Source: Lytechinus pictus (Eukaryota). Taken from it: DNA of 64,000 nt. Position numbers and translations under genes: made by a program. Location of the stretch: assembly GCF_037042905.1 (NCBI RefSeq), contig NC_087245.1, positions 33,358,001-33,422,000 of the forward strand, in the 5' to 3' direction. This document shows, piece by piece, positions 1,876 to 57,505 of the stretch (within the stretch, counting starts at the first letter, position 1; each line of letters opens with the position of its first letter). The notes below the pieces were generated by a model, which was not told the origin of the DNA, made no database searches, and saw only the letters and a list, made by a program, of their open reading frames with translations.

Positions 1876-2348
1876 CACTGATTCCCCGTTAAACAAAGTA
1901 CACTAGGGCTGACACTGACCGATCATTTGGAGGATGAATGGGGACTGAGAGAGATGACAAAAATCTAGCACCTTTTCATATATGACATTTAATCATGAAA
2001 CTATGACATATATTTTCACAGAACATATATCTACATTCAATCTCCATTCTGAAGGGAAAAGGGTGTACTTTTATTGATTAACATACTTTATTCACCAATC
2101 ATTCATGTATCCAATTTTAAACTGCTTCGGTCAACTAACTTCAATAAGTCAATACAGTAAGCATGATTATTTATAAATCACTTCAAAATATGCTTGTTAT
2201 CCCATTTAAAGAATAACAATTAAGTGTTCAGTCATCTTTAGTATTAGGCAATGGGTTAAATGATATACATGTAGCCAATTAGTTTGAAGTGGACAATGTA
2301 AAAGAGCTTTCCTGATTGAAAATTAATGTAACTTCGTTGTCTCACCTG

Positions 2349-2481
2349 GGTCCCGTAACACAAAGGTTAATTAGCATTTAATCGTATGCTTGATTTTTAC
2401 GATTGATTGTACATTGTAGTCAATGGAATCAATCGTACAAAAATGTTCTACAATCATTGCTAAGCTTTGTGTTACGGGCCC
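2349..2481. mobile_element. Harbinger-type MITE, family A (~135 bp)
   Basis: TIRs GGTCCCGTAACACAAAG / CTTTGTGTTACGGGCCC; further copies at ~48248 and ~53912. Confidence 0.8.
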
Positions 2482-2528
2482 AGGTCTATGCAGTGGTTTC
2501 TTTATTAGATCGCAGATGGATAAACCAG

Positions 2529-6019: not shown

Positions 6020-6119
6020 GAGTCTTATTTAAAAAGTCTTTGGTGTGACTAAGCCAGGGATTGAACCCATGACCTTCCATTCACGAGGCAGGCACTCTAC
6101 CACTGAGCCACCATGCCGG
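6020..6119 (-). mobile_element. tRNA-derived SINE head
   Basis: Minus strand GGCATGGTGGCTCAGTGGTAGAG (A box) ... GGGTTCAATCCCTGG (B box), then non-tRNA sequence (AGTCACACCAAAGACTTT). Confidence 0.75.
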
Positions 6120-6744
6120 TCAAAATGTGAATAGGAGATCACGTTCACTGGAAATAGAAATATGGATTTTTGCTTTTCACAGGCATACGATTCATACCGG
6201 GGAACCATGAAGAAATACTTGATACAAAATACGTATTGAATTGAACTCACACTCACAGCCTCTTGTTGCTTGAGTTGGGAAATGTTAATATATGTTGAAA
6301 AGTATACAAGCACATTGAGACAGAAATGTCAAGTGTGAACAGATCCAATAATCTATATAATGTCCTTGAAGCAAGTGTAACTCCAGGTGCCGTTCTATCC
6401 TATCAATATAGAGCTGTAATATTTATTGGATTGTACATTCATTCATCTCCCAACCCGCCATGCCAGAAACTCGGTTTTCATTAAATTCATCTCAGGTCGA
6501 TAAATCCTTCAAGTTTACTTTTGGTTCACAGGGAATTAATCATGACAATATTTCATATAATCTTATCAAAAATAATTTTGTCCGACTAATATTTTATATA
6601 GTACTTTGCAATCCTTAAACACCATTCATGATATGAGAGTTTATTCCAAACATAGGATAGTAAAAGGCATCTACACATCATTATGCATCTATAGAACATA
6701 GATCTATCCTCAGAGCTGTCATCCAGCTTGAGTTTGATCTACCA

Positions 6745-7511: not shown

Positions 7512-7966
7512 GGGGGGGTTACAAGAAAATATTTGCAATCAATCACAAATTTTCTGTTGCAAATTCATAATTACTAGATCAATTGTATCTGTAGCATATC
7601 AGTAATCAGTCACATATTTACAATCAATGGCAACACATACACTACAAAAACTCCGGTGTTGATTTAACACCAGCCCGGAATCTATATATGTCCAAACCAG
7701 AGAAGTGTTAAATAACACCGGTTTTGGTATTAGTCTAACACCAGCATGACCAGATAGGTGTTTATACAACACCAATTAGTTTTAAAACAGCATCGGTTTG
7801 ATTCCAAACTGGTGTTGTTTCAATACTTCTCTGGTGTGGACATATATAGATTCCGAGCTGGTGTTAAATCAACACCGGAGTTTTTGCAATGTATGACTGA
7901 TTTAGGGACTGAAAATAGACACTGGAAATAGACTTGTGATTGATTGTAAGTTTCTTGCAACGCCCC
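7512..7966. mobile_element. Degenerate Harbinger-type MITE hosting a nested insertion
   Basis: TIRs GGGG.GTTACAAGAAA..TTGCAATCAATCACAA / TTGTGATTGATTGTAAGTTTCTTGCAACGCCCC. Confidence 0.6.
7640..7891. mobile_element. TA-flanked CACT-terminated palindromic MITE (EnSpm/CACTA-like or Tc1-like)
   Basis: ~80-bp TIRs CACTACAAAAACTCCGGTGTTGATTTAACACCAGC; TA on both sides; second copy at 51147-51367. Confidence 0.85.
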
Positions 7967-12332: not shown

Positions 12333-13930
12333 CTAATTAGAACTAAGAACTAGCTGTGAAGAAATTGAGCATTTATGGAGAACGCCTCCTCGTTGACAAC
12401 AATGCTTGAAAATTTCTTAATCTTCATCATTGGCAAAGTAAACTTGAAATGGGTTGCTGAACAGAAAAATATACTTGGATCCATGTAGATTTGCGAGCTT
12501 AGTGCGAGATATATTTTCTATTAACCTCTTGGACTCTGATTTCTGGATTTCCTATAGGCTTTGTATATGGATCACCAGGTTCCAGCAGACAACGGGTTAA
12601 GCTCAATTTTACGACAATGCCTGAAGTAGATAAGCCTATATTTTAACATCCCTGCAAAGAGATCTGTTGGTGCTACACCCCATTCCAGGTTAAACAAAAA
12701 AAGAATTGTAACCCCCCCAAAAAAAAAAATTAGTGTTTAAATGAACCCCCAAATTTGCAGTAGGCACTATTGTATTTGCAAAATATTGAAAACCCACTGT
12801 CACAAACTATTCTCTTATTATTATTGTAATAGTATTTGCTACACATGCAAGGAAAACTAAATTTGTGAATTTGTAAAAGCTTGTAATCTCAAATCAATCC
12901 TGTGATAAGAGATAGATGAATTCCTGTTTGCCTTCTGGATGAGTGTCTGCAATTAAGTAATTAGTGCTACGGGTGTCTTCCTATGAAAACATATAATGGG
13001 TATTGCACTAGGGATGATGAAAAGCAGATTGAGGTAAAAGTAAGAGACGGATAAATCATCAATAGATGAATGAACAAAAACAGAAAGAGACAGATATATA
13101 TAAAGCATGGAAGAGAAAGGGAGAGTGAAAGATATTGGGGTGGATATGGAGAGAGAGATAGAGAGAAAAGGGGACAAAATGAGGAGTAATGTTCATTCAA
13201 AGCAGAAAGAAAGGTGCAAATAATTATGCAGCAAAAGTACACAGTAAATTTCAATTTGCATGCAAAAAAATCTTAATCCTCTTACATGAGGAATTTATAT
13301 AAGTTTAGCTTGAAATTTTATCCTTCTATGGTACTTTAATCTTTTTTAATGACAACATCAAACTGATGAGGTACCTGAAGTACATTTGCAATACTTTACA
13401 AATTTCCAGAACAAACAAGTGTCCTATCCTATTCTTCATCCCAGGCTTTACGTGTGTTTTACACTTCTTTGCTTAATTGGATTGAGGAGGAAAATATCAA
13501 ACACTGAAGCTATATTGTGGATATCTTAGTCTTCATAGAAATAAATAGCTAACTTGCAATATCATGGTTCAGGAAGAAGAGAATATTTCACAGAAAGTCT
13601 TGAGATAAGGTTACACGACTGGTGTTTAATTATACTGAAGAACTTCCCATAAATAGCTTGCCTGGTATGAGTAATGAGAATTCTAAATGGTAAAAAACTC
13701 ATTTAGGCTATCAATACTCTGGTTATTACTTTTGAAACGGGTGCAAAGGAAGGCTGGTAAACAATATTTTAATCAAAGATTATTGAAATAAATTCAATGT
13801 TGTGCTTCATAGATAGAGAATAAGTAAAAGACACATAAATAAATTGAAATTTGACTGACTGCAGGGGGGGTGTTAGAAAACAAAGGCAATATACCAAATC
13901 ACAAAAGGGGAAGGAGAGATTACAAGTGAG

Positions 13931-14100
13931 TGTGTGTGTATTTGAGTTTTGTCAGACGTGTATCATTCAGATATGATTTACGTCTGGGACGGACCTTTAA
14001 CGTCACCATCCAAAAGACGTGACCAGGGCTCGAACCTCTGCATCAATTTGTAACTTCCCCGCATGGCTTAGATTACAGGCGCACAGCCACAACGCCCAGT
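13931..14100 (-). mobile_element. SINE with 7SL(SRP)-RNA-like head, copy 1
   Basis: Minus strand CTGGGCGTTGTGGCTGTGCGCCTGTAATCTAAGCCATGCGGGGAAG...GGTTCGAGCCC...(CA)n tail; 11-bp TSD TTACAAGTGAG at 13920-13930 and 14101-14111. Confidence 0.85.
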
Positions 14101-16439
14101 TTACAAGTGAGGGGGGAGTGGAAGGGGTGTGGTGGGAGGATGTGGAGAGAAAATTGGTAGAGGGCAAGGAGAGAAGACAGGGAAGAGTGAAGGGGAGTGA
14201 CACCTTAAAAGTTAGTCATACTACGTACTGTATATCAAAATACAGGACAGTTTCACAGCAAGAGAATTTTTAAAATACTTTGATCAGAATATCAGAATGT
14301 AAAACGGAATAACATGCTGATGGTTGAAAAATTGATGTTTATTAATATAGGAAACCAAATTAATTGATAGGATTGTGCAGCAAATGCTAATGACACAAAC
14401 TAAAAAAAAAAAGAAAGAAAGCTAGGACATACAAGGGACTCTAAACTGTAAACTGATCAGGGACTGAAACTACCGAGTTAAACTTTAGCTAGTTTAATGA
14501 GGTATCGAAGCCAAGATACAGCTCATCACCAGGAAACTCATCTCCTTTTCCTCCCACTTGTCTCGTTATTTGAGAAAAGAAAGATTGATGCCTCGTCCAT
14601 TATCAGACCTCTTGCAGGGAAAACCAAACAGACTTGCAGTCCCTGGTTCAACAAATGTAAAGCATTTGTTTTCTGCTGACAGTAAGAAATAAATAGGAAA
14701 ATTCTGCCTACACATATGCATCTGATGTATTTCTTAATACAAGAAATATACTTTAACAGAAAAATGGGATTTGGTAATATAAAAAAATTAGAAGGGGGGG
14801 ATGGGCAGACTTAACTATATTGGAATACACATGTTTTTCTGGTTAAGACTGATACATGCATAGCAATTCTAAGGTATCAAAACTGCTCGCCAAAATGGGA
14901 TAATTATAATAGAATGTCATCTGAGGAAAGCATTTTTTTCTATTAAATAAAAGTGGTTTTGCATGTGTTCAGTGATATACTTGAGTGCCCCCCCCCCCCA
15001 TTGCCCCAGCTCCAGATAAAGCACTATGATGCATTATGAATAATATGTTCATTAACTTTCATACACAATAAAGCTACTATATGAAATGGCTAAATAGCTG
15101 AAAATGTACTTTAATTAGAATGGCCTGGAATAAGGCGAAATACTAGTAGGCCTCAGCATATAATGTTAAAGTAAAAGCAAGAGGTTCTAACCTATACGAG
15201 GAAAAGTGATGGATTACCAAAGCAAACAGTTGCCATGGTAATAAGTGAGGACACTCTCCAGTGTATCAATCTAAATGCAGACAATGTGGGCGGGAAGTGG
15301 TGCATGAACATTCTACTCTGATTCCCATTTTACCAGTCTGTGATCTTTCACCGACCCCCATCACCAACCGAGGGCGAAAGATGGGGAACATGGGAATCGC
15401 AGCAACCAAACAACAACATTCCCAGGCAGATCCGTTGATTCAAAGTACCAGTATGCACACAAAAAAATTGAATATCCCACGTGTAACAACAAAAACACTA
15501 CATACCCTCCTCCACTGGGAATGACCTTTGACCCATTCTCTCGGAGCGGAACATTAAGTTTGAAACAAAGTCTTGAGGAAACTATGAAGCCAGTGGTGCA
15601 ATTGTAGAATTAATGGATGACGGCAAAGCATGAGGAACGTTCTAAGGAATCAAAGCTACCAAACGAATAGGATTAACCTCGGATGCTGCAAACCAAGGCG
15701 GATGGATGAGGGAGCCCGAGGCAGCTGTGATGGCTTGCGAATGATATTTCAAGCTCACAGCTAGAGAGTTTGGAGTTCTTTTTCTCCCTTTTTTGGCAGT
15801 CTGTTTGTGGAACAGTGACCCTGGGTGTTGGATGACAATGGGAGTTGGAGAGCCCTTTGGGTTCTATTGGGTAATGTTTGGGTTCTAGATGAGACCAGGC
15901 TTCTTCCATGGTGCAATTGGAGGAGGTTCACCAAGTTCATTGGCAGGATTCCAAAATTACTTTTATCCTCTAAATGATAGAATTACTTTATTACACATTA
16001 TCCCTGGAATAAATTTCTCTGAAAATCATAAATGATTCTATGCTAACTGCCAATTATCTTATATATTCATGTACACTAAAAAATACACTTGTTTTACAAA
16101 GCAAAATCATCAAAACCCCTTCAGGCGATGCTTGACAATTCCATCACTTCAATTCTAAAATAATTATAAAAAAAGGGACTAAACTCCACGAGGACTATCT
16201 TTTAATTTGAAAAGCAGCCTTGAATAAATATGTGACATTGATCAATTATGGAATGGTCAAGTAAAACCCAGTAAGACGCATTAAGAGAAAGTGATGGTAA
16301 TCATTACAACAATGGAGTGAATAAAGATATGAAATAATCATAAATTACCTCTTCCCTAAGTTCTTCTACTTTCATCTACATGTATTTCAAAAATGTAACC
16401 TATTAGAATCATTCCAACTGCTGTATTATAGCAAATTCT

Positions 16440-18435
16440 AGGCAGTACTCTAATGGAAGAGGAAGTTAAAGATATTTTATGTACTTTAGATGCTTCAAAA
16501 TCTCATGGGTATGATAATTTGCCAGTTAGATTGATCAAGGATGCAGCACCTTTCATTGCTTCTCTGTTGACTTATATGTTCAATTTATCATTAGAATTGG
16601 GCAAATTCCCAGATGCCCTAAAGGTAGCAAAAGTGACCCCCCTGTATAAAAAGGGTTCGAAGGATGACCCAGGCAATTATAGACCCATTTCAGTTTTACC
16701 AGTTATTGCAAAAATCTTTGAAAAATTAGATAATATGCGTCTCATGGCCTTTCTAGACTCCAGTGATATTTTGTATAGACATCAGTATGGCTTTCGTAAG
16801 AGATATAGTACGAAATTATCAGTAATAAATTTGGTAAACACATTATTGAAGGCGATTGATAAAGGTGAAATAACCATAGGTATATTTATAGATTTCAAAA
16901 AGGCGTTTGACACAATCAATCATAACATACTCTACGAAAAATTAAAGCATTATGGAATAAGAGGTATTGTATTGCAGTGGTTCCAGAATTACTTAATGGA
17001 CCGATCGCAGGTTTTATGTTACAAAGATGAAATGTCCAGTAGTAGAAGGATAACATGTGGTGTTCCCCAAGGATCAGTCCTGGGGCCAACACTCTTTTTA
17101 TTATATATTTAATGACTTACCAAGATCAACTGATTTTTTCCAGTTTAGACTTTTTGCAGATGATTCAAATATTTTCCATACTTTCCCCAAATGTCAAAAA
17201 GATATTGATATGAACTATGTAAGTAAGAAATTAAAAGAGGTGTATAGTTGGTGTATACTTAATAAATTAACCACAAATTTGAAGAAAACTAATTATATGA
17301 TAATAAAAGGACCAAGACGATCTATTGAAATTGAAGGTGTATTAACTTTATGTGAAACAGTTATAGAAAAAGTACATGTGGCATCTTTTGTAGGAATTCA
17401 AATCGATGAATCTTTGTTGTGGAAAAACCAGATCCAATGTATTGATAAATGCATTAGGCGGAAAATTGGTTTGCTTTTTAAATTACGTTACTATGTACCA
17501 CGGCATGTTCTAATGCTTTTGTATAAATGTTTTATACAACCACACATATCTTTTGGAATTGAAGTTTGGGGAAGTAGCTACAGGAGCCACCTAAATCGTA
17601 TATATTTGGCGCAGAAAATGGCTATGAGAGCAATTACATTTTCTCCACTTAGAACAAGCTCTACGCCACTATTCGTCAGTCTGGGGGTATTAGGTGTTTA
17701 TGACTTGCATAAACTTGCAGTATCAACATTTGTTTATGATTTACACAAGGAACATTTACCACATTCTGTAAAGCAATACTTTGAGATGTTAAATCATAGT
17801 TACAAAACCAGAGGCAGAGAACATTCCATGCTAAGACTTCCCAAATGTAACACTACACATGGCACTTTTTCTATATCTTTTATTGGAGCAAAGTTTTGGA
17901 ATAGTTTGCCCCAGAGTATACGAGAGAAAAGAACACGGTTTTCATTTCGTAAAAATCTGAAAAATTACTTGATTAATGAAGTTTGATGATTGATATGAGT
18001 TTGGAAAAAAAATAAAATAAAACAAAGTTGTTTTAGAAGTAGATACATTGAACTTTGATCCTTTTGGGAAACCATTCTCGACTAGCACTTGTGCTAACTT
18101 TTGGTTCTCCCTTTAACAGCATTTCATTTGGTACAAAATCACCCATACCATTTATAATTTATGTTCATGCATACAATCAATTTTTATGGTGATTTGCTTC
18201 TTGCCAGGTGAAACTGCATCAAGACAAAACACATGATGTTACTCTTTTGTATTATATGCTGATATCACATGCGGTATTATATTGTGTTTTTATCTAGACT
18301 ATGATTATGTTATGTTATGAATTGCATTTATATGATTCATGTTATATAACACATTCTTGTAAATATGTATTACACATATATTCATTCATGTAAATATGTT
18401 AATGTTGTTAATAAATTCAACTCAACTCAACTCAA
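16440..18435 (+). mobile_element. 5'-truncated non-LTR retrotransposon (CR1/L2/Crack group)
   Basis: RT ORF, 3' UTR with stem-loop (~18066-18111), AATAAA then (CTCAA)n tail at ~18410-18435. Confidence 0.9.
16453..17986 (+). pseudogene. LINE ORF2 reverse transcriptase, truncated, one +1 frameshift at ~17110
   Basis: Motifs NYRPISVLP, QYGFR, FIDFKKAFDTI, GVPQGSVLGP, LYI/NDL (split by an extra T), FADD. Confidence 0.92.
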
Positions 18436-21530: not shown

Positions 21531-21592
21531 TTATTGTGAGGCAAATACTATGGACTAGACTGCATCTACTGGACCTGCAGTAATGCTACTAA

Positions 21593-21760
21593 TACCTTGG
21601 TCACATATGACCTACATGTACGGCGGCCGTACGGCGAGTCAAAAACAGCCATTTTATTAATTTTTATTCAAACCATCTATATGTAGCTGGTACAAAAAAT
21701 GTTAAAACGGCTGTTTTCGACTCGCCGTACGGCCGCCGTAGATCAGTTGTGACCAAGGTA
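21593..21760. mobile_element. Palindromic Harbinger-type MITE
   Basis: TIR TACCTTGGTCACA..TACGGCGGCCGTACGGCGAGTC; perfect TAA TSD. Confidence 0.85.
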
Positions 21761-21883
21761 TAACCTCAACATAGATTTTCAGTGAACTTCCTTCAACAAA
21801 TAACATTTTACCTGTTAATTTAAATGAATCAAATCAATTTTAATATACAAATCCAATTTTGTATAGGCACGTGCATGGGTGTA

Positions 21884-23264: not shown

Positions 23265-24159
23265 AACAAGTGGAATGCCTCTGGCCGTCTCACCTGCATC
23301 ACGCGATTCAATATAGCAGCAGTGCTGATTTTGAAAACTACTATAACTCGCACAAGATGTTCAGTGATACTTGGTTACTCTTATTTCCACGTTTTATGAA
23401 CTAGACCAATACACTTATAGAGATATGATGGCAATTCAACAAATACCCCCAACGTGGCCAAAGTTCTTTGACCTTACATGACCTTTGAACTTGATCATGT
23501 GACCTGAAACTCGCACAGGATGTTCAGTGATACTTGATTACTATTATGTCCAAGTTTTATGAACTAGACCAACACACTTTCAAATTTATGGCTGTAATTC
23601 AACAAATACCCCAATTTGGCCAAAGTTCATTGACCCTAAATGACCTTTGACCTTGATCATGTGACCTGAAACTTGCACAGGATGTTCAGTAATACTTGAT
23701 TACTATTATGTCCAAGTTTCATGAATCAGATCCATAAACTTTCAAAGTTATGATGGTAATTCAACAGATACCCCCAATTCGGCCAAAGTTCATTGACCCT
23801 AAATGACCTTTGACCTTGGTCATGTGATGTGAAACTCATGCAGGATGTTCAGTGATACTTGATTAACCTTATGTATAAGTTTCATGAACTAGGTCCATAT
23901 ATTTTCTAAGTTATGATGACATTTCAAAAACTTAACCTTAGGTTAAGATTTTGATGTTGATTCCCCCAACATGGTCTAAGTTCATTGACCCTAAATGACC
24001 TTTGACCTTGGTCATGTGACATGAAACTCAGGCAGGATGTTCAGTAATACTTGATTAACCTTATGGCCAAGTTTCATGAACTAGGTCCATATACTTTCTA
24101 AGTTATGCTGTCATTTCAAAAACTTAACCTCAGGTTAAGATTTGATGTTGACGCCGCCG

Positions 24160-24196
<37 letters not shown>

Positions 24197-36319: not shown

Positions 36320-37430
36320 CAAGTGGAGCGCCTCTGCATCACGCTTTCCAATATAGAAGTAGTGCTGACTCTGAAAACTATTGTAAAATAATTATTCACA
36401 AAAACACCATTCATACATTGATACAATACTACGTTCATTTACAATAAATGACATTTGACCTTTATCATTTGACCTAAGACTTGTCAGTGATACTAGATTA
36501 CCCCTATATCCACATTTTATAAACTGTATCTAAACTTTGAAAGTTATGACAGTAATATAGTATCAATCTCCAAATGGCCAAAGTTCAATAACCTTAAATG
36601 ACCTTTGACTTTGGTCATGTGACCTGAAACTGGCATGAAATGTTCGGTGATACTTGACTACTCTAATATCCAAGTTGATGAATCATATCCATAAGCTTTC
36701 AAAGTTATGATGGTAATTCAACAAATACCCCCAACATGGCCAAAGTTTATTGACCATAAATGACCTTTGACCTTCGTCATGTGACCTGAAACTCGCACAG
36801 GATGTTCAGGAATACTTGATTACTCTTATATCTAAGATTCATGAATCAGATCTATAAACTTTTAAAGTTATGATGGTAATTCAACAGATCACCCGAACAT
36901 CACTAAAGTTCATTGACCTTTGACCTTGGACATGTGACCTGATATCCGCACAGGATGTTTAGTGATACCTGATTACTCTTATGTTCAAGTTTCATGAATC
37001 AGATTCATAAACTTTCAAAGTTATAATGTTAATTTAACAAATACCCCAATTGGCCAAAGTCCATTGACCCTAATTGACCTTAGTCATGTGACTTGAAACT
37101 CAAGCAGGATGTTTATATACTTTAATAACCTTATGTCCACGTTTCATGAACTAGGTTCATATATTTTCTAAGTTATGATGACATTTCAAAAACTTAACCG
37201 TAGGTTAAGACTTTGATGTTGATTCCCTAAACATGGTCTACGTTCATTGACCATAAATGACCTCTGACCTTGGTCTTGTGACCTGAAACTCGAAAAGAAT
37301 ATTTTGTAATGCTTGATAAACCTTATGGTCAAGTTTCATGAACTAGGTCCAAATACTTTCTCAGTTATGATGCCATTTCAAAAACTTAACCTTCGGTTAA
37401 GATTTGGTGTTGACGCCCCCTCCGCCGGCA
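36320..37430 (+). mobile_element. HINE-like element, diverged and 3'-truncated copy of 23265-24252
   Basis: Same CAAGTGGA..GCCTCTG start and same TGACCTTTGACCT tandem units. Confidence 0.8.
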
Positions 37431-42759: not shown

Positions 42760-43313
42760 TACCCTTTTTACACAGGATTTTCTTAACCCCGGACTATCGC
42801 TAACCCCGTACTATCCTTAACCCCGTACTATTTTTTTTCCCTTTTCACACATGCCAAATTGTTATCGCTAACCCCGGATAAGGAATGCTTGCTTTTCACA
42901 CACGAAACTCGCTAACCCCGGACTAGTGGTTTTTGTCGATCATTCGTAGTACAAGTACTTCACTCGTACCTTTATACACACGCTAAAATTTCCTTAACCC
43001 CGTACTATAGGTGGGGCTAAATTGCCATTTAGCCCCACCTATAGTACGGGGTTAAGCTTAGCCCACTTTCGTTTTACACTAGCGATCTTAACCCCGTACT
43101 ATCGCTCTTAGCACCGCAATTGCTGGGATAACCCTGCTTTTTTGCAGGGCCAAATAATCCCGTACTAAAGGTGGGGTTAGCCCACTTTGCAAAAATGCTG
43201 TGTAAAAAGAAAGTGGGCTAAGCTTAACCCCGTACTATAGGTGGGGCTAAATGGCAATTTAGCCCCACCTATAGTACGGGGTTAAGGAAATTTTAGCTTG
43301 TGTAAAAAGGGTA
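42760..43313. mobile_element. Harbinger-type MITE with TAACCCCG arrays and internal hairpins
   Basis: TIR TACCCTTTTTACACA / TGTGTAAAAAGGGTA; TAA/TTA flanks. Confidence 0.85.
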
Positions 43314-47712: not shown

Positions 47713-47760
47713 TAGGCCTTTATTCACGAAGGAGCTCTTCTTACCAGAGACAGAACTGTG

Positions 47761-47929
47761 TGTGTATTTGAGTTTTGTCAGACGTGTATCAATCAGATAT
47801 GATTATTTACGTCTGGGACCGACCTTTAACGTTACCATCCGAAAGACGTGACCTCTGCATCGAACCTCTGCATCAATTTGTAACTTCCCCCGCATAGCTT
47901 GGATTACAGGCACACGCCACAACGCCCAG
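47761..47929 (-). mobile_element. SINE with 7SL(SRP)-RNA-like head, copy 2
   Basis: Minus strand CTGGGCGTTGTGGCGTGTGCCTGTAATCCAAGCTATGCGGGGGAAG...; TSD AGACAGAACTGTG at 47748-47760 and 47930-47942. Confidence 0.85.
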
Positions 47930-48247
47930 AGACAGAACTGTGAATATAATTCGATCACTTCTTATAATCCACTGAAAACGTCCATGGACCAATCGCTTTT
48001 GAGCCCACTCTCCCCCTTCCGTTTGCCAGCACATGGAAATGATACGATGAAATACACTTCTCAGTAAAACTTACATTTTAGTTCGATTTATTCCAATATG
48101 CCTGTCTTTTTTTCAATTTGATACCAGTACTGAAAATTTTAGTTCATAAGAAGAATAATTAAAAAAAGAGAGGGTAAAGTAAAGAAAGAATAAGAGTATT
48201 GCAATAAAATTGCATGTTCGTCGAACTCTGAACACTGAAAAAACCGG

Positions 48248-48376
48248 GGGCCCGTAACACAAAGCTTAGCATTGATCGTAGAACATTTTTCTTCGATTTC
48301 ATTGACTATATACAATGTACAATCAATCGTAAAAATCAAGTGTGTGATTAATTACTAACCTTTGTGTTACGGGACC
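48248..48376. mobile_element. Harbinger-type MITE, family A
   Basis: Inverted copy of 2349-2481; CGG/CGG TSD. Confidence 0.8.
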
Positions 48377-51146
48377 CGGGGTGTTAAAAGTGACACCAAT
48401 GGTGTCGAACTTATGCATTAAAAAAACTGACACCGTAGTAAAATGACCGGTGTGGTCATGTAAACAAATGGATACCACATAATGTACAGCATTCTTTTTT
48501 TTGCTCGACTGAGAATTTAAATGACGTCATTCGAGGCCCTCTTTTCCTATGAAAATACCCGTTGCCGCCCCCGCGTTTTGAAAAAACTCTCAACCGGTGC
48601 GACAACGTTCCAACAAAAGCTGTTATCAATATGCCTACATTTATTTATTTTTTATTTATTCATCGTTTCGTTTCAGAAAAGAGGTGGCTTTGTTCAGGAG
48701 TTTACAGATATGGGTAAGTTTAATCAATCCGATATGTATTATGATCATTATTTTATATTAAAAAACTCTCCGTGAAACAAAAGACTTAAAATATCGAATG
48801 TCCATAATAATGCAATGAAAAATATTCGTATTCAAGTTATAAATAATCATTTGCACATTAAACTACGACACAAGTCATCAATTCGTTGACTAATGAAAAT
48901 CTTTTGATTTGGTTTGGTAGGTTCTATTTACCGTATAACTACAAAACGCATGACACCGTGGTCATTTTAGGGAACTATAATGAAATATGTTGAGAGAAGA
49001 GATATGGATGGATCACTCTATTCAGAGCAATATAACAATTTAAAATATGCACAATCGTACTTGACCTCATTACCATTTGGAATGTGTTATATATTTGAAT
49101 CTGATATATGTCTGTGTTAAATGAATATGATTAATGTTAACGTATTTTATGATTGTGATTGACCTGCCATGCGTTCAAAATAGAACCATGGACCTAATAT
49201 ACTGTTGTGCTGAAAGTTAGTGAACCCCACCACAGGTTCCATGAGCCTAATTACAACAGGAGGGCTGAAGATATTCGTCCGACCCAACTCATTCGATTTT
49301 TTTTCAATTTGATATTGCTGATTGCCAAAAGTGTATGAATATAATTGAAAATCTAACACTGATTCTAGAAATGGTAACTATTGAACTTCCTTAGCCCAAA
49401 TTGGAAAGATATAAAATGACTTTGGAACTATTTTTTGGCTGGCGGAAGAATTGGGACTATTTTACTGTTTCAGTTTATAAATTTGATCCCATCATAGTTA
49501 TCTTCATAAATGGCGATTTATTTTTAAAATGAGCTGGCTACGATACCCTTCTCTGGTCAGATATGGAATGTCAGATATATATCCTATCGAATGGTAGTAA
49601 ACATTCGACCCTCTAATTTCACGTTTATTTGTTATGAATTTTACAAAAGTGCCATTTTAACACACAAGTCTATGGGGGAATGTTTTACGCGCGTGACACC
49701 CACAAAATCATAGAGTTATATAAAATGCACTCCTTCATCATGTTCATGCTGAGTGTTAAATGTAGACAACAACACGACAATGTCGGGCGAGCCCAGAGGA
49801 ACAAACGCTATTGAATATATTATTTTATCACCTGACTTCACAATCAATTACAATGACATGGCAGAACTTGAACACTTTTAAATATGTTCATTTTCTGGTG
49901 GGGGTTCACTAACTTTTTAGCACCACTGTATGTCAACATGTACTTGAACTCAATAAAGACATGATTTCAATGAACTAAATTTCCCAGAGATGTGTAAACA
50001 TAACGCATTATGCAACACTAATCCAATAATATGCCAACTATATGCTTGTAGAATGATTTTTCTATAACTATACTGTACACTATTCATACAGTTTTAAATG
50101 GTTGGTCAATGATTTAGCCAATCCATATCCAACATTGGTGCGTTTGCTGCCGATAAAATATTTGGGTAGTCACTGCCATAACTGTCTTTGCACTTGAGTT
50201 GCCTATCTCTGGGTGTGAAGATTGCCCAACATGAGTTGTTGTTTCTCATTGACAATATTTAACACACATTAATAGGCCTAGACAATGAACAATTTATGTG
50301 CTTAAGTTTGCCCAAAAAGATGAAGGACTCAGTAAAAACCACTATCGAATGTTATACTATGCAACTAATGTGTGTGAATTGTCCCGTAGTTGTTTAACAA
50401 ATTACAAAAAAGTGTTTGTTTTTTTATCTTAAACAACAAATTTTTTTTTTTTATGTAATCTTAAAAAAATCAACAACTTCTGTAAAGTTCATCATTGTAC
50501 ATTATAAAGTATCGAACGGCGTTTTTATTGTGCAACCCAGGCCTGGAAAGCATATTTATCGGACGTACAGGTATATTTTGCAAATATCAATGTGACCAAA
50601 CTTTTGTTAAGGGTATTACAAAATATCTTGTCAGCATTTATATAACTCGAATTGGATATGATCTTGACGATTGTTTTATGCCAAAATTCTAATTAAAAGT
50701 GTTGTATACATGGGCAACACAATTTTGGTTAGAATTTTGGCCTTACTGTGTTGGCCAGGAACAGAAGGGTTGCAATACGCGTCCAAGTAAGTACAATGTT
50801 TTGAGAAATTTATCATTCTAAAAAAAATAAAGAATAAAAAATAAGGGGCCAATAATTCAGGTGAATTAAAAACAAAAAGTGCAAAATAGACACAACCTTA
50901 GCTATCTACAGATTAAGGAGCGTATACACTTAGATACTTCCAAAACGTCGGCAGTATTTTCATCTTGTAACCTGGCGGATCAAACTTTGAAAGATGTGCG
51001 TTGATATGTGTGTTTTTTTTTTTTTCCGTTTTATTTCAGCAGGGTGTGTTCGTTCCGTGTGTTTTGTGTATGCAAAAGTGATGGTGCTGGGGTAAGGTGA
51101 AGGTGTGTGTCTGTGTGCGTGTTGATGTGGGTGAAATTGTATTATA

Positions 51147-51367
51147 CACTGCAAAAGCTCTGGTGTTAATTTAACACCAGCCCGGAATCTATATATGTCC
51201 ACACCAGTTTCGTTTTGGTCTAACACCAGAAAGGTGTTCATACAACACCAATTAGTATTAAAACAGCATCGGTTTGATTCCAAACTGGTGTTGTTTCAAT
51301 ACTTCTCTGGTGTATACATATATAGATTCCGGGCTGGTGTTAAATCAACACCGGAGTATTTGTAGTG
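51147..51367. mobile_element. TA-flanked CACT MITE, same family as 7640-7891
   Basis: Same TIRs; small internal deletion. Confidence 0.85.
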
Positions 51368-51407
51368 TACTTGGCTTGTAATGCAGTAACTCGTGTTACA
51401 TCAACAG

Positions 51408-51605
51408 GTGAATCGGGAAACAACTTGAGATTAAGGAAGAAGCGTTGGGTCATTCTCTTCGGTTTGTTCTTTGTGTCTTTTTTGGAAAATGGCATCATCA
51501 GATCCATTGCCCTCATCCTGGACGATCTCACTAAGGAGTTTGACATCACTGCCGCCCACCTTGGCACTCTTCTTGGACTTGTATTCGGTGCACCTCACTA
51601 TCTGG
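51408..51605 (+). CDS. SLC16/monocarboxylate-transporter-like MFS protein, first recognisable coding exon (TM1-2)
   Basis: RWVILFGLFFVSFLENGIIRSIALILDDLTKEF; CAG acceptor; G|GTAAGT phase-1 donor; start codon not identified. Confidence 0.8.
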
Positions 51606-52079
51606 GTAAGTCAATTTAAAAATACATTAGCAAAGTATTTTTTCAAATAATGAAAGTAGCAAGTTTTAGCCACACCTAATCAATTTTCCGGTCCCGCTGA
51701 AACGTAGGCCCCATGTAGGACCCTTTAAAAATGGGTGGCCGTGCTGGTCAAACTATCACCATCAGGGTTGGCGCATACGCCTATATAGGTTACACACTTT
51801 ATAAGAAATAGGGTTCCAAATTTAACCCTGTGGATTGGTAAAATAACAGCTCTCTTCAATGGTTGGTTATGCGCATATATTTATTCCTAATTAATTACAA
51901 AACAAAACAAAAATTTCAAGGTCATGTACTTTAAATATATACAAAGGCGAAACCAAGGTTAAGTAGCACGAAGCAAAGCGAAGTGATCGAACGAATGATT
52001 ACACATGATAGCATGCAATCACTGTACAAACATTGCCCTACTATCAATTCCTAGTATGTTCATATTTGATTCCTAGTAT

Positions 52080-52612
52080 GTTTATATTTTCATATTTACT
52101 ATCTAGATATTGGACTTCACCTGCTTAACTATTTTATACTCTGACATTTTTGTCAACATTATAGACTTTAGACCTGTATAAATTGTCTTTAGTTTCGAAA
52201 ACATTGCAAACTTAATTTACATATATATATATCATCTCCGTATGTTTATCTTTTTTTGCACCTTTCTTAATTTAACGAGCTATGTTTCTCGCTCTTCCGT
52301 TTCCCCTTGGTTTAAATCAGAATTTTATCTGCTGTGTGTTACTGCTCTTCTTCCACTCTTTTCTGTCCTTCATATTTCCCCTCACCCTTCCTTATCTACA
52401 TCACCCCCTATAATCTTCTTTCTCCTCTTATCTATACTCTGTTCATCTTTCCCTTAATATGCAAGGTTACTCAATGTGTTTGTCGTTTTATTTGTAAATG
52501 TTGTAATGTTTGATTTGCTATATCATTTGATAATTGCCATACTTTGTAAATCCAATGCAATTCAGCCAAATTGGCTGCGATATGTGGATATTTCAATAAA
52601 ACCTTAAACCAA
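52080..52612 (+). mobile_element. Degraded LINE 3' end in the MCT intron
   Basis: Stem-loop CAGCCAAATTGGCTG followed by AATAAA and a short repeat tail. Confidence 0.4.
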
Positions 52613-53455
52613 TCGCTAAACATGTAATGCCTACAATTAATTTGTCACACATAGTGATCTATCACTCATCACTCTACAAATTTAAATGATAAATCAGCAA
52701 TTGAACGATTTAGTCCAGTAGAACCTCAACATGACTGTCAAGTTGGGTATATATGCAATTTTTTTTGCCTAAAGTGGTAGTATAGGATGTCTTTTTCAAG
52801 AATGCGCAGGGTGCCACCTGGGCACCATTGGGCATTTTTTTATATTAACGTCATAAGCCACGCCCACTTTTTCACATTCCTCTCAATTATGATTTTTCTA
52901 TTTTACATAATAAACATATCATGTTTGGTATCAAATTAAAGCTAATGAAAAATCAAATTCTAATATATATCATAATTTCTACCCGACTTGTTAGAGGAGT
53001 GACAACCTCTTCTAAAAGTTGTATATACCACTTTAAATGGTTCAACGCAACACTTAAACTGAGGGATTCAGCGTTATGCAAGGTTGGGTATAAGATACGG
53101 AAAAGGTTCTCACTCCTCCAGCCTTCCTATTGCTGATTTAACGTTTCACTTTTTAGTGTGAGAGAATGAATAGATAGTTGATGTTAAGTGTACTATAACA
53201 AACACGATTATAATTGATTAAGTAAATTACTTACTATGATTCAAAATTAAATATTGCGCAGTAGGCATGGTAGACCTATTAGTTTTCCATGATTAGCAAG
53301 AACCAGATAGTCAGGAGAACTAGGGTGAAGGATATTTGAAAATGTTGAATACCATATATTTTTTTAATGGGGGGGGGGGGCATGGACTTTCCGTTGTCCG
53401 ATTTGCAAAGAATACAAAAAATAATAATCATTATAAAGCCATCTATCAGAAATGA

Positions 53456-53881
53456 TCTATACCAAGTCGCTCTATTATGATTACTAAGTATTTTTTTTTT
53501 AGCTCGAGGTGCCTTCCAGAACTTGGTGTAATCGAAAAATGAATTACCCATTCACCTCACCTGGGATGAGGGCGGTAAAATTCTTGTCATGCATTCAATT
53601 AAGTTTTGTGTATATTTGTTTTATATGCATGTATTTATGTTTTAAAGGACCCCATGGAAGAACAGTGGTATTTTATTAATACCGCTGAAATGGGCCATCC
53701 TCCATAATATGTACGTTATGTTAAATTGAGCATGTATATATTGTATTTTTTATATGGATATAAATACAAACAAACAAACAAACAAACAAAGTTTTGATAA
53801 CTTTATTGCTGAAGGAAAACACGGCGCGCCATGGCTGGGATTCGAATCCTCTGTTCAAACTATACCAGATCACGACGCCCC
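53456..53881 (-). mobile_element. tRNA-derived SINE interrupted by a LINE 3'-tail fragment (~53580-53790, + strand)
   Basis: Minus head GGGCGTCGTGATCTGGT...GATTCGAATCCCAGCCATGG; insert has a stem-loop and a (CAAA)n tail. Confidence 0.6.
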
Positions 53882-53911
53882 AAACAAAGTAAAGCAGGAA
53901 AAATCAACCAG

Positions 53912-54043
53912 GGGCCCGTAGCACAAAGCTTAGCAACAATCGTAGAACAATTATTTTCGACGATTGATTCCATAGACTAGAATGTACAATCAATCGTGAA
54001 AATTAAGCATACGATTAATCGCTAACCTTTGTGTGACGGGACC
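53912..54043. mobile_element. Harbinger-type MITE, family A
   Basis: Same TIRs and body; CAG/CAG TSD. Confidence 0.8.
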
Positions 54044-54060
54044 CAGAATATACTATAAAT

Positions 54061-54881
54061 GAAGAGCTCACTTGCAAAAGGGGTTAGGTCCATTTTTCAT
54101 CAAATTTGATTTTTTGGTCTCAATTTATAGATTTTTAGTAGCTCTATAAGATGATACCAAAGAAAATTTGAAATTCCTAATTAAAAGTAATCAAAAATGG
54201 CAAAGAAAAATCACTTTTTTCAAAAGGGGTTAGGTCCATTTCAGTTTAGTTACAAAAGGGATTAGGTCCACACCGAATTTTTTGGAAAAGAATATTTTAA
54301 AAAATATGAAGAAAGGTAGATTTCTTTTTATACCCAATTTTATGTTGTCATGGTAGGGAATCTTGAAAATTTAGTTTCGCATAAGAATATGCAATATAGC
54401 AGAATAAAAAAAAAATGATTTTCTTGGAGTGGACCTAAGCCCTTTTGCAAACAAACTCTTCTGAATAGCTCATTTGTCAAAAGGGGTTAGGTCCATTGTC
54501 CATAAATTTTATTGTTTTCTGTCTCAAAACCTCAAAATTTTTAGTCGCTTTGATGAAAACAAAGAAAATTTGAAATTTACATGAAAACGTGAAAAGAAGT
54601 GGAAAAGAAAAATCACGTTTTTTAACCAAAATAGATTGGATTCATTTAAGTTTACTTGCAAAAGGGCTTAGGTCCACAATGATAATTTTTAAAAGAATCT
54701 ATAGAAAAAAATTGAAGACAGGTAGATTTCTTTTATACCCAATGTTATGTTCACATGAGAGGGTAGTACGTCATGACAATTAAGTTTCTCATAAGAATAT
54801 TGCAGTAAGTGAGAATAAAAAACTTAGTTTTTCTTAGAATGGTCCAAAGTGGACCTAAGCCCTTTTGCAACTAAACTCTTC
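54061..54881. mobile_element. Head-to-tail dimer of a ~400-bp MITE with 4-bp TSD (Sola1-like)
   Basis: Units 54061-54461 and 54463-54881; TIR GAAGAG..TTGCAAAAGGG.TTAGGTCCA; AAAT on both outer flanks. Confidence 0.75.
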
Positions 54882-54946
54882 AAATATACATTTTCAAATA
54901 ATAAATAGTAATGTGACAGTAAATGAGATTGCCTTTTTTCAATCAG

Positions 54947-55087
54947 GATGGTTGAACATCCCTCTCCTACGAAGATTCTCGGTCCGGCAGCTCGTTATGT
55001 TTGGAGGGACGGTGTCAACCCTTGGACTCGTAACATCTTCGTGGGCTCAAACAGCCATCCAGTTTTCAGCTGCAATGTCAGCATATG
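54947..55087 (+). CDS. SLC16/MCT-like exon (TM3-4)
   Basis: GWLNIPLLRRFSVRQLVMFGG (MFS motif A-like); CAG|...G|GTAAG, phase 1-1. Confidence 0.88.
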
Positions 55088-55211
55088 GTAAGATTATGAA
55101 GTTCATACATTCGCAAAAAGCGTTTTTCTTGTAGGCCTACGTCGATATTGATCATCTGACGCGTAGTATTAGTAGTAATTGATTTAAATTCTGAAAAATA
55201 TAGAGAAAACC

Positions 55212-55890
55212 TTTTTGTCTCGCCTGAACGAAGTTCGGTAGAGACCTAGAAATCACTTTTCCTGTTGGTCCGTGAGTCTGTTCCAAAATATTAAAGTTTT
55301 TTTTCAACTTGCTCCCATTTCTGTATTTCTGCATCAATTAAGTTCATACTTGGTACATATGATCATTGAGTATTAACGCATGTAAGGGTGATGGGGTCAA
55401 AGGTCATCTAGGGGTCGAAAGGTCAAATGATATGAGGTCATGTCTGTTCCAAAAACGTTTTGGAACATACAAGACCTTGGTATATATGATCCTAGGGTAA
55501 TACCACATGTGTGTCCATGAGGGTGATGGGGTCAAAGGTCATCTAGGGGTCAAAAATGTCAAATGATGTGAGGTCATGTTTGTTCCAAAAATGTTAAAGT
55601 TTTTGTTCAACCTGCTCTCATTTCTTTATTTCTGTATCAATTATGACACTTTGTACGTATGATCCTAGGCTAATACCACATGTATGTCCATGAGGGTGAT
55701 GGGGTCAAAAGTAATTTAGGAGTCAAAAGGTCAAGTTTTTGTTCATCTTGCTCTCATTTCTTTATTTCTGCATCAATTATGTTGACATTTGGTACATATG
55801 ATCCTTGGGTATGATAAAATGATAAGGTCATATTGCATATTTTATCGATCGAGATATCAGGCGAGACTCGTGGTTCATGAACCACCTTGT
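55212..55890 (-). mobile_element. HINE-like element with GGTCAAAGGTCA tandem units
   Basis: Subterminal IR GTCTCGCCTG / CAGGCGAGAC, terminal hairpin, ends CTTGT. Confidence 0.7.
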
Positions 55891-56131
55891 AAAAAATAGG
55901 AGAAACATGCACAAATTCGCCAAATGAAGTTTGAAAAAAATTCAAGGTGTCATCAAGGGGGTGGGGTGGAATTGATAAAGAATAAACAAAATTATGGAAA
56001 TTTGTTCATTGCAATAAATTAGACACGCAGCATAGGCCTTCAGAATGTAACAGTTTTATTTATAGTAATGTGAGATAACCTTTGAACGATTTGTTTGAAA
56101 GATAATAGGACTACGTTCTCCATGTGATAGT

Positions 56132-56471
56132 CATCAGAGAGTAGAAAAGCAAGATGATCCTAGAGACTTGAGTTGAAGGCTGGCTTGAGTTTGAGAGTTG
56201 AGAGAGGCTTGAGTAGATGAGAGAAAGCTGGCTTGAGTCGGCGAGTTTAGTTGTGGAGCGGGAGCAGATGAGGAGACGTTTCGGGCAGGTTGACTCTCGG
56301 TCTTGGGAAGCCAGCCTTCTATTCAAGTCTCTATATTCTTGCCTACTTCTGCATCTTTTCTTCTCTTTCTGGTTGAAAGGACTACACTCATTTCCGAAAG
56401 ATAAGACCTACTCTGTTTTCTAAACGCCCACTTTCTCGCCTTTCTATGTCTCGTAAACCCTTTCCGTCACG
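56132..56471 (-). mobile_element. Possible LTR remnant
   Basis: TGTGA...TCACG termini with adjacent TGG (PBS-like) on the minus strand; no clean TSD. Confidence 0.3.
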
Positions 56472-56536
56472 TAAGAAACGTTAGTTCTTACCTTCTTACC
56501 TAGTTTTATTTTTCTTGTTCTCAATTTCTTGAACAG

Positions 56537-57505
56537 GGATCGGCAACATATTGATTTTGGTTCCAACAAACACTTGCCCAAAGGATTACTTCCCTAAGCT
56601 GGTAATGATCGCAACCGGTATTCTGTTATCCGGAGGAAGCATGGGTGTTACGGTGATGCCATGGTTCTTTAGAGAACTGCTTGTCGAATATGGTTGGAGG
56701 GGCTCTCTTTTGATACTTGGTGGATTAAACGCACACCTTGTTGTGGTAGCATCCTTGCAGGAACCAATGAAAAGGATGGATTCTTCCCAGGACTCGGACA
56801 AGAAAAGCCCATCCTCATCACGTGCTGGTGAAAATGAAAACGAATTATCAAGTTCGGATGATTTATCAAGATCCCATAAATATTTACATACAGTTACAAA
56901 TACTGCGGCATCTGAACCTTCTAAAGGTCAGCTAAGCTTTAATGATGATGATGGTGGACAAACGGATGGCCAGACTGTCAAGACTCGGAGCATTATTTCC
57001 AAAGGGTTCAAAACTACGACAAGATTCATTGGTTTAACAATCTTCAAAGATCACCCTCTCATGGCCTTGCTTTGCCTGCAAGCTTTCGTTTTTGGCCTCT
57101 CTTACATCGGTTGGCTGCTATACATTGTGCCCAATGCCCTCGCTAAAGGCCATTCTAGTCAGAAAGCAGTCCAAATATCGATCGTAGGAGGCGCTTTTAA
57201 CTTCATAGGTCGTTTGGGGATCGGCTTCTTCTGGTCCCGAAAATACATTAAGTTTAAACTCTGGTACTCTCTGATATGCCTCCTGTCGGCGGCTCTCTTC
57301 TGGATCAACTTTGTCGCGCAACGTTTCGAGATTCTGATGGTCTTATCTGCGTTCTATGGTGTATTAATGGGTGCCCTCGTGACATCTCAATTTCAGTTAG
57401 TGATGAATGTCGTTGGTGAAGATTCCCCTGATGATTATAAGACTGGAATGTCAATATTCTTCATAGGACGTGGCCTAAGTAGTCCGATTGCAGGAGCAAT
57501 ATTTG
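56537..57505 (+). CDS. SLC16/MCT-like large exon (TM4-11 and cytoplasmic loop)
   Basis: DYFPK..IATGILLSGGSMG, YGWRGSLLILGG, FIGRLGIG; CAG acceptor at 56536; G|GTAAGT donor. Confidence 0.93.

What the first reader, a model, noticed from the sequence alone, without database searches (positions are those of the whole stretch)
13931..14100. Chimeric architecture of the SINE: 7SL head, B box, Deu/Nin-like core, (CA)n tail
Seen: after the 7SL-like head comes GAGGTTCGAGCCC (Pol III B box, about 60 nt from the 5' end), then GTCTTT(T/C)GGATGGT(G/A)ACGTTAAAGGTC.GTCCCAGACGTAAA. Known: 7SL genes need upstream elements, and Alu acquired an internal B box. From memory, the Deu/Nin SINE domain contains GTCTTTCGGATGAGACGTTAAACCGAGG...GACGTAAA. 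Inference: a 7SL 5' fragment replaced the 5' half of a tRNA-derived Deu/Nin SINE, giving a hybrid A box (7SL) and B box (tRNA) promoter. In copy 2 the sequence after GGTTCGA is replaced by a local repeat (TGCAGAGG).
Basis: partly seen in the sequence, partly recalled or inferred. Interest (0 to 1): 0.7.

Follow-up and report, generated by a model that had tools for sequence, protein, structure and literature searches.

The report
Sea urchin SINE with swapped head
This is one copy of a young, abundant jumping element in a sea urchin that took the first 47 or so bases of signal-recognition-particle (7SL) RNA, the same small module that drives human Alu, and put them on the body and tail of an ordinary tRNA-type SINE, a design not described in the papers read here.

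Summary
The chimeric architecture is real. Two copies (13931-14100 and 47757-47930, minus strand, 91% alike) carry 11- and 17-base target-site duplications, and contigs of two independent studies show the empty site. The first 47-48 bases match the SRP-RNA 5' domain (Rfam E 0.0064 and 8e-5), with helices, U-turn triad and loop-loop pairing kept; no 3' 7SL part follows. It has an A-box/B-box (tRNA-type) head without 7SL, then the same body and 3' hairpin (82 of 85 bases identical). Its B-box block is collinear (7 differences in 14 bases, all transitions), and a 10-base piece starting at the 7SL junction is shared. Head replacement is therefore the best reading. Corrections: only about 37 bases of the 5' Deu/Nin block are present, not the domain; L001's head is tRNA-type by its boxes only; no partner LINE was found. 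The head equals the 46-base minimal Alu domain shown in 2025 to suffice for retrotransposition. This scan noted the family many times on other pieces of this genome. The host is a Lytechinus-type sea urchin.

The parts
14101..14111 (+). Target-site duplication, copy on the 5' side of the element (11 bases)
   Evidence: Exact 11-base direct repeat with 13920-13930
14053..14100 (-). 7SL (SRP RNA) 5' Alu domain head, bases 1-48 (one extra base in loop 3 in this copy); holds the A-box-like stretch at 14097-14087
   Evidence: Rfam Metazoa_SRP model positions 1-44, E 0.0064, 18.2 bits, below gathering score 70; helix 3 6 of 8 pairs, helix 4 3 of 3, closing helix 3 of 3, loop-loop 4 of 4
14038..14052 (-). 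Spacer; its first 10 bases match the 3' part of the sibling's tRNA-type head
   Evidence: 9 of 10 identical to L001 226-235, p 0.009 against 5000 shuffles of the L001 head upstream of its B box, piece chosen after seeing the alignment
14024..14037 (-). Pol III B-box block, most likely from the tRNA-type parent SINE
   Evidence: Fits the B-box pattern; gap-free and at the same distance from the body as in L001 250-263, 7 of 14 identical, all 7 differences transitions
13987..14023 (-). 5' block of the Deu/Nin (Inv) central domain, ~37 bases
   Evidence: Published-alignment pattern hit, 0 of 100 shuffles; by eye 26 of 37 columns identical to AmnSINE1 for this copy, 27 for copy 2, 28 for L001
13953..13986 (-). 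3' hairpin, the likely recognition signal for the partner LINE's reverse transcriptase
   Evidence: z -5.0 (0 of 200 shuffles as stable); copy 2 z -4.2; L001 z -2.7 with a 9-base duplication confined to the loop
13931..13952 (-). A/C-rich linker and (CA)n tail
   Evidence: loose ends beyond 13930 are heterogeneous (agreement about 0.4) in all four runs, so the family ends here
13920..13930 (+). Target-site duplication, copy on the 3' side of the element
   Evidence: contigs of X1 and X4 run through it and leave the element out (tables 5 and 8)
47757..47930 (-). Second full-length copy; the bases after the B-box core are overwritten by a local 11-base repeat; 17-base duplication at 47744-47760 and 47926-47942
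   Evidence: (Metazoa_SRP 1-44, E 8.2e-5, 24.4 bits)

Best explanation
A non-autonomous retroposon (SINE) family of Lytechinus-type sea urchins, born by head replacement. An older SINE with a tRNA-type A/B-box head, a short 5' Deu/Nin block and a hairpin tail lost the 5' part of its head and gained the first ~47 bases of 7SL RNA, most simply by template switching during reverse transcription. How it most likely works: RNA polymerase III transcribes it from the 7SL-derived A box and the parent-derived B box (inferred). The 5' domain folds as the Alu pseudoknot and binds SRP9/14, placing the RNA at ribosomes (inferred from the structure and from experiments on human Alu). The 3' hairpin plus A/C repeats is recognised by a LINE reverse transcriptase, which inserts new copies by target-primed reverse transcription (shown: target-site duplications, an empty site, very many dispersed copies; inferred: which LINE).
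For: Mobility: duplications of 11 and 17 bases. One contig each in X1 and X4 (two samples, two studies) runs from the left flank through the duplication and joins to 14180, with too few letters left to hold the element (tables 5 and 8). Summed contig depth over the body is about 17,000-38,000 times that of the flank in 4 of 4 runs (the tool warns this is no copy number). Head: Rfam SRP positions 1-44 in both copies; G4, U23 and G24, the triad named in PMC12265939, and the GGC/GCY loop pair are present. Parent type: L001 has an A box at 182, a B box at 251 and no SRP match. Its body and tail are identical to copy 2 at 82 of 85 bases plus a 9-base loop duplication, blastn E 9e-32. A strict A box falls within 41 bases by chance at a rate of 0.006 in this window, and 0 of 25 B-box matches in the window have one 30-70 bases upstream. 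Junction: the 7SL part has no similarity to the L001 head (p 0.70 and 0.98), while the piece right after it has (p 0.009). B-box block collinear, all 7 differences transitions. Precedents: hagfish SINE1-1_EBu arose by putting 7SL on a tRNA SINE; 5S heads were put on tRNA DeuSINEs. The 46-base 5' Alu domain alone binds SRP9/14 and gives about 86% of Alu's retrotransposition.
Against: The sibling is one copy, from 1 match in the metagenome scan, of unknown host, with no target-site duplication of 7 or more bases found. ARAGORN and Rfam do not call its head tRNA. Its head-side similarity to the element (9 of 10, then a gap, then 7 of 14) is much weaker than the body's 96%, so L001 is a relative of the parent rather than the parent; over spacer plus B box together the local score is not significant (p 0.056 and 0.064). 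No tRNA-headed form appears in the window or among the best-supported loose ends in the four runs (622 further loose ends were not shown). The Rfam scores are far below the gathering score, and the isolated heads fold less stably than shuffles (z +1.8). The A-box-like stretch does not fit the strict tRNA A-box pattern. The host's own 7SL gene could not be examined (no genome held). No LINE with the tail was found.
Confidence: 0.76

Rival explanations
1. Independent assembly on a shared module: the body and tail (from the Deu block on) are a mobile module, for example a short non-autonomous LINE derivative, that was joined separately to a tRNA-type head (L001) and to a 7SL head plus a B box from some other tRNA-derived source. 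No direct head swap took place between these two families.
For: Identity falls from 96% to about 50-60% exactly at the first base of the Deu block; spacer plus B box together p about 0.06; module shuffling is common in such SINEs.
Against: Same gap-free distance from B box to body, all 7 differences transitions; a 9-of-10 piece starts right at the end of the 7SL part.
Confidence: 0.13
2. The B box and spacer come from 7SL itself: a longer 7SL 5' fragment decayed and gained a tRNA-like B box by mutation, and was joined to the body at the Deu block.
For: 7SL carries an internal B box at 76-86, near the position of the B box here; the host 7SL gene was not seen.
Against: Both Rfam alignments stop at model position 44; the printed human 7SL B box agrees with this one at only 6 of 11 positions (by eye); the spacer piece and B-box block are shared with the non-7SL sibling.
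Confidence: 0.05
3. The junction lies earlier (about base 36), and bases 37-70 come from the 5' block of a V-type SINE body, the B box having arisen by chance.
For: With the majority letter of the four runs at 14061, 13 bases after loop 4 equal a motif in several BivaV-SINE3 rows; by eye about 25 of 37 columns agree with one BivaV-SINE1 row.
Against: Noticed by eye among some 30,000 characters of alignments, with no statistical test; both window copies differ from that motif at the site; bases 43-48 are needed for helix 4 and the closing helix, which pair fully; the sibling explains the spacer and B box.
Confidence: 0.04
4. Not a self-propagating SINE but a set of independent chimeric retrocopies (7SL added anew to each insertion), or contamination by mammalian Alu.
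For: Summed depth falls steeply over the head (from 1.2 million to 38,000 in X1).
Against: Both copies and the loose-end consensus of all four runs have the same junction and the same 5' start. The fall in depth coincides with four differences private to copy 1, and a similar dip occurs at its 3-base deletion in the body. The flanks encode a protein 99% identical to a Lytechinus pictus protein. Neither a 3' 7SL part nor a poly(A) tail is present.
Confidence: 0.02

Closest known systems
SINE1-1_EBu (Ebu1-1), hagfish (Kojima 2020, PMC7245038; parts 1-3 of 4 of the text read, supplement searched, one supplement part read)
   Same: 7SL head placed on an older tRNA-derived SINE; LINE-type tail ending in a microsatellite; duplications of about 17 bases; young family.
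   Different: The hagfish element keeps both the 5' (96 bases) and 3' parts of 7SL, so a whole Alu domain and 7SL's own B box; it has no Deu block and a bipartite RTE tail. Here only the 47-base 5' domain is kept, and the B box and a Deu block come from the other parent.
Alu, B1, Tu and Urop (SINE1 of mammals; Kosushkin 2026, PMC13023118, parts 1-3 of 5 read)
   Same: 7SL 5' domain at the 5' end with an A box; that paper notes tree-shrew Tu units of dual 7SL and tRNA origin.
   Different: All arise by central deletion of 7SL, keep its 3' end and use L1 through a poly(A) tail. Here there is no 3' 7SL part and no poly(A), but a hairpin and (CA)n.
DeuSINEs / Nin / Inv domain SINEs: AmnSINE1, EbuSINE1, sea urchin SINE2-3_SP, BivaDeu-SINE1 (PMC4824008 passages and supplement file 2; PMC5804259 and PMC4758252 passages)
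   Same: 5' block of the domain, with its small hairpin-forming motif; some DeuSINEs also gained a new (5S) head over a partial tRNA head.
   Different: Deu is 330 bases in vertebrates, Nin about 120, the shortest listed form 70; here about 37. The second conserved block is at most an 8-base remnant that doubles as hairpin stem, and the third is absent. SINE2-3_SP itself could not be compared (sequence not in the files read).
SA46, the engineered minimal Alu domain (Moldovan 2025, PMC12199147; abstract and passages read)
   Same: Same extent: 7SL bases 1-46, binds SRP9/14 and supports retrotransposition without the 3' strand.
   Different: SA46 is a laboratory construct under a Pol II promoter with poly(A) and human L1; this is a natural element with its own Pol III boxes and a structured tail.
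Bivalve Meta/V/MD SINE tails (PMC4824008 supplement; PMC11481361 passages)
   Same: Terminal hairpin followed by an A-run and A/C repeats; duplications of 6-18 bases; linked in that paper to Nimb and CR1-Zenon LINEs.
   Different: Likeness of design only, seen by eye; 0 hits for 6 motifs of this element in the 8 supplement files of PMC11481361.

Membership tests
SINE (SINEBase definition) | Short (<1 kb), interspersed, non-tandem repeat | tested here: met
   170 and 174 bases, 34 kb apart, unrelated flanks
SINE (SINEBase definition) | [quoted passage not shown] | tested here: met
SINE (SINEBase definition) | At least 60% identity to tRNA, 5S or 7SL over at least 60 bases | tested here: not met
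   The 7SL match spans only 45-48 bases; no tRNA match. SINEBase allows exceptions if Pol III transcription is shown, which was not testable
SINE (SINEBase definition) | Signs of retroposition: target-site duplication, simple-repeat tail | tested here: met
   11 and 17 bases; (CA)n tail; empty site
SINE1 (7SL-headed SINE) | 5' end derived from 7SL RNA | tested here: met
   Rfam RF00017 positions 1-44, E 0.0064 and 8.2e-5, below the gathering score; helices, triad and loop-loop pair kept; host gene not seen
SINE1 of Alu/B1/Urop/Ebu1-1 build | Both 5' and 3' parts of 7SL kept around a central deletion (whole Alu domain) | tested here: not met
   No match to the 3' end of the SRP model in either copy; the rest of the element is shared with a non-7SL sibling
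SINE1 | Pol III transcription; SRP9/14 binding | not testable with these tools
   Only boxes and structure could be inspected
DeuSINE / Nin-SINE | 5' conserved block of the domain | tested here: met
   26-28 of 37 columns identical to AmnSINE1 by eye
DeuSINE / Nin-SINE | Central domain of 70-330 bases with the downstream blocks | tested here: not met
   Similarity ends after about 37 bases; at most an Inv-like 5' remnant
SINE2 (for sibling L001) | tRNA-derived head | tested here: inconclusive
   A and B boxes present; ARAGORN and Rfam give no tRNA match
Stringent-type SINE with a LINE partner | 3' end shared with an autonomous LINE | tested here: inconclusive
   Hairpin present; no LINE with this tail in the window or in the scanned collections; the host genome could not be searched

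The most novel reading that the evidence does not exclude
A natural version of the minimal 46-base Alu module: an invertebrate SINE that acquired only the SRP9/14-binding pseudoknot of 7SL, used it to reach ribosomes translating its partner LINE, and by that gain outgrew its tRNA-headed parent to tens of thousands of copies. It would show that the 5' domain alone, without helix 5 and without poly(A)/L1, is a portable enhancer of retrotransposition, and it would be the first well-defined 7SL-headed SINE outside vertebrates.
Probability: 0.35. Interest if true: 0.82.

Novelty: new variant of a known kind. Interest (0 to 1): 0.63.

Why it matters
Kosushkin 2026 states that 7SL-derived SINEs are known only from supraprimates, hagfish and the shrew mole, and that they share a central deletion keeping both ends of 7SL. 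This family breaks both rules: it is in an echinoderm and keeps only the 5' domain, cut at the length that Moldovan 2025 found sufficient in cell culture. With a tRNA-headed sibling that has the same body and tail, it offers a natural pair differing mainly in the head. That makes a long-standing question directly testable: does the Alu domain raise retrotransposition by ribosome targeting, also for SINEs whose LINE recognises a structured tail rather than poly(A)? The insertions are also presence/absence markers for Lytechinus.

Tried and rejected
No host genome is held, so host 7SL, copy number, sibling families and LINE 3' ends could not be searched there. Rfam at gathering score: 0 matches in the window. 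ARAGORN: 0 genes in the window and in L001. Rfam on the spacer and B box alone: 0 matches at E up to 10; on the L001 head: 0. The SNORD101, mir-1268, snoU2_19 and Yar hits (E 0.13-8.6) are below threshold and were set aside; mir-1268 resembles the head because it is itself Alu-like (recalled). Tail motif: 0 matches in viral, metagenome and genome contigs; hairpin motif 0 in viral contigs; Deu patterns 0 in viral and genome contigs. blastn against phages gave only E 6 chance hits. The RT fragment at 16432-17986 does not share the tail. Whole-element folding is no better than shuffles (z -0.56 and -0.52), nor is the Deu block (z -0.9 and -0.8). No RNA holder was listed among the sequencing runs. 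The fall in depth over the head was not taken as 5' truncation, because it follows copy 1's private differences and the tool may drop human-like contigs. The V-domain idea is kept only as a weak rival. Literature searches that found no description of this family. Repbase, Dfam and the SINEBase supplements were not available, nor file 1 of the PMC4824008 supplement; an entry there cannot be excluded. I recall a 2006 paper claiming an Alu-like SINE in amphioxus; it is not held, so I saw nothing of it. Kojima 2020 and Kosushkin 2026 do not list it among 7SL SINEs in the parts read.

Full report
Observation. The finding lies on the minus strand at 13931-14100. A self-comparison of the window gives one other copy, 47757-47929, 90.8% identical over 174 columns, with unrelated flanks. 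The local repeat in copy 2 is an 11-base direct repeat at 47851-47861 and 47864-47874. It leaves the B-box core intact.

Host. An exon at 56605-57504 is 99% identical to a Lytechinus pictus transporter and 94% to its L. variegatus counterpart. The window is thus from a Lytechinus-type sea urchin. No genome is held for it.

It is a mobile family. Copy 1 has an 11-base and copy 2 a 17-base target-site duplication. Four public DNA runs of organism A (3 samples, 3 studies) were laid on 13780-14250 at 80% likeness. Between 1,035 and 3,372 contigs per run fit, almost all on the element; summed depth over the body is 17,000-38,000 times that of the flank. The tool warns that this is no copy number. 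It does agree in order with 2 copies in 64 kb extrapolated to a genome near 1 Gb (size recalled), so tens of thousands of copies seems likelier than the roughly 1,400 given in earlier scan notes, which may count one chromosome-sized piece. One contig each in X1 and X4 crosses the left flank and the duplication and joins to 14180. In X1 only 131 letters of that contig remain after 13930, too few for the 170-base element, so the site is empty there. The join also omits 14112-14179, and the flank differs from the window by 8 letters and 7 gap positions in 151, so organism A is a sister species or a distant haplotype. Loose ends beyond the (CA)n tail are heterogeneous, which fixes the 3' end.

The head. 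Rfam's metazoan SRP model matches positions 1-44 of 299 in both copies (E 0.0064, 18.2 bits; E 8.2e-5, 24.4 bits; gathering score 70) and nothing further. In copy 1 helix 3 keeps 6 of 8 pairs (one of the two misses is unpaired in the Rfam consensus too), helix 4 keeps 3 of 3, the closing helix 3 of 3, and the two loops are complementary over 4 bases; copy 2 is the same except that its first base, which lies in the duplication, does not pair. G4, U23 and G24, the triad described as critical for SRP9/14 binding in PMC12265939 (passages), are present. Against this, the isolated heads fold less stably than shuffles (z +1.8); a protein-stabilised pseudoknot need not score well in such a test (own knowledge). 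The A-box-like stretch does not fit the strict tRNA pattern.

The Deu block. A 24-letter pattern built from that alignment hits both copies with one mismatch and nothing else; no shuffle gave a match. By eye, 26, 27 and 28 of 37 columns are identical to AmnSINE1 for copy 1, copy 2 and L001. Similarity then ends. The published domain spans 330 bases in vertebrates, about 120 as Nin and 70 in the shortest bivalve form, and Inv is described as the 5' end of Nin. The element is therefore not a DeuSINE in the full sense; it carries an Inv-like 5' remnant.

The sibling. A 23-letter body pattern gave 1 match in the metagenome collection, locus L001. There, an A box at 182 and a B box at 251 precede the same body. 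From the first base of the Deu block to the linker, L001 is identical to copy 2 at 82 of 85 bases and to copy 1 at 79 of 82, apart from a 9-base duplication in the hairpin loop and copy 1's 3-base deletion (blastn E 9e-32 and 8e-26). It ends in (CAAC)n. It has no SRP match, and the 7SL part of the element does not resemble its head (p 0.70 and 0.98). Directly after the 7SL part, 9 of 10 bases match the L001 head (p 0.009, chosen after the fact). The 14 bases from the B box to the body align without a gap, with 7 differences that are all transitions. This is the pattern expected if 7SL replaced the 5' part of a tRNA-type head and left its 3' part and B box. Limits: spacer and B box scored together are not significant (p about 0.06); ARAGORN and Rfam do not recognise the head as tRNA; no duplication flanks the copy; its host is unknown; and no such form was seen in the window or among the listed loose ends (622 not shown). 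L001 is best taken as a relative of the parent.

The tail. The hairpin is the only part with clear excess stability (z -5.0, -4.2 and -2.7 in the three sequences), and the changes among them fall in the loop and bulges. Such 3' stem-loops mark SINEs whose LINE recognises a specific tail. Its design, hairpin then A-run then A/C repeats, recalls bivalve Meta and V SINE tails, which PMC11481361 links to Nimb and CR1-Zenon LINEs. This is a lead by eye only. Sea urchin SINE2-3_SP is listed with a CR1 partner. The RT fragment in the window does not share the tail.

Mechanism. Shown: dispersed, high-copy, recently mobile; 7SL 5' domain only; body and tail shared with an A/B-box-headed SINE. Inferred: template switch as the origin (proposed for similar chimeras), a hybrid Pol III promoter, SRP9/14 binding, ribosome targeting, and the partner LINE. 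The inference on the head gains weight from Moldovan 2025: 7SL bases 1-46 alone bind SRP9/14 and give about 86% of Alu's retrotransposition, the 3' domain 7%. The natural cut here falls at base 47-48.

Comparison and novelty. It works like hagfish SINE1-1_EBu, but lacks the 3' part of 7SL that all 7SL SINEs in the two papers read retain, and it misses SINEBase's 60-base criterion. Those papers list no invertebrate example. Nine literature searches found no description of the family. Repbase, Dfam and the SINEBase supplements were out of reach, and a recalled 2006 amphioxus claim could not be read. Earlier notes of this scan describe the same family on other pieces of this genome. I formed my reading before seeing them and treat them as leads; their claim that the head matches the host's own 7SL gene could not be checked here. 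They led me to the shrew-mole paper. A search of the notes with L001 found no look-alike.

Papers seen. PMC7245038: text parts 1-3 of 4, supplement search, supplement 1 part 2. PMC13023118: parts 1-3 of 5. PMC4824008: passages, supplement file 2 whole. PMC4758252: passages, first parts of sections 9 and 11. PMC11481361: passages and supplement search. PMC5786205, PMC3531059, PMC5804259, PMC4494074, PMC3747384, PMC12265939, PMC12199147: passages (the last two with their abstracts).

Verdict. Observation confirmed; interpretation supported with the stated corrections. New variant of a known kind; interest 0.63.

Noticed in passing
L001:175-371 (+): tRNA-type SINE with long A-B spacing (about 58 bases), the same body and hairpin as the window element and a (CAAC)n tail; host unknown. 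If the host is not an echinoid, 96% identity of the body would need explaining.
   Followed up: partly
window 6036-6121 (-): Isolated tRNA-type SINE head with A and B boxes followed by the start of a Meta-like domain (compare); no second copy in the window.
   Followed up: partly
window 16432-17986 (+): 5'-truncated non-LTR retrotransposon, RT domain in two frames (Pfam RVT_1, E 2e-23); its 3' end does not share the SINE tail.
   Followed up: partly
window 14060-14066: Loose ends in all four runs show a variant two bases shorter in loop 4 of the head, and the majority letter at 14061 differs from both window copies: subfamily structure, or a difference between the window's genome and organism A.
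   Followed up: no
window 14112-14179: G-rich stretch beside the element has no cover in X1, X3 and X4 and is left out by the empty-site join; possibly a second insertion or expansion.
   Followed up: no
window 2345-2495, 48233-48380, 53912-54046; 7636-7895, 51144-51369; 21592-21761; 42969-43310: Several dispersed or palindromic repeats of 140-350 bases that look like MITEs.
   Followed up: no
window 23345-24165 and 36433-37427: Two related tandem arrays with a unit of roughly 155-165 bases.
   Followed up: no
window 51344-57693 (+): Exons of an MFS monocarboxylate-transporter-like gene; used only to place the host.
   Followed up: partly
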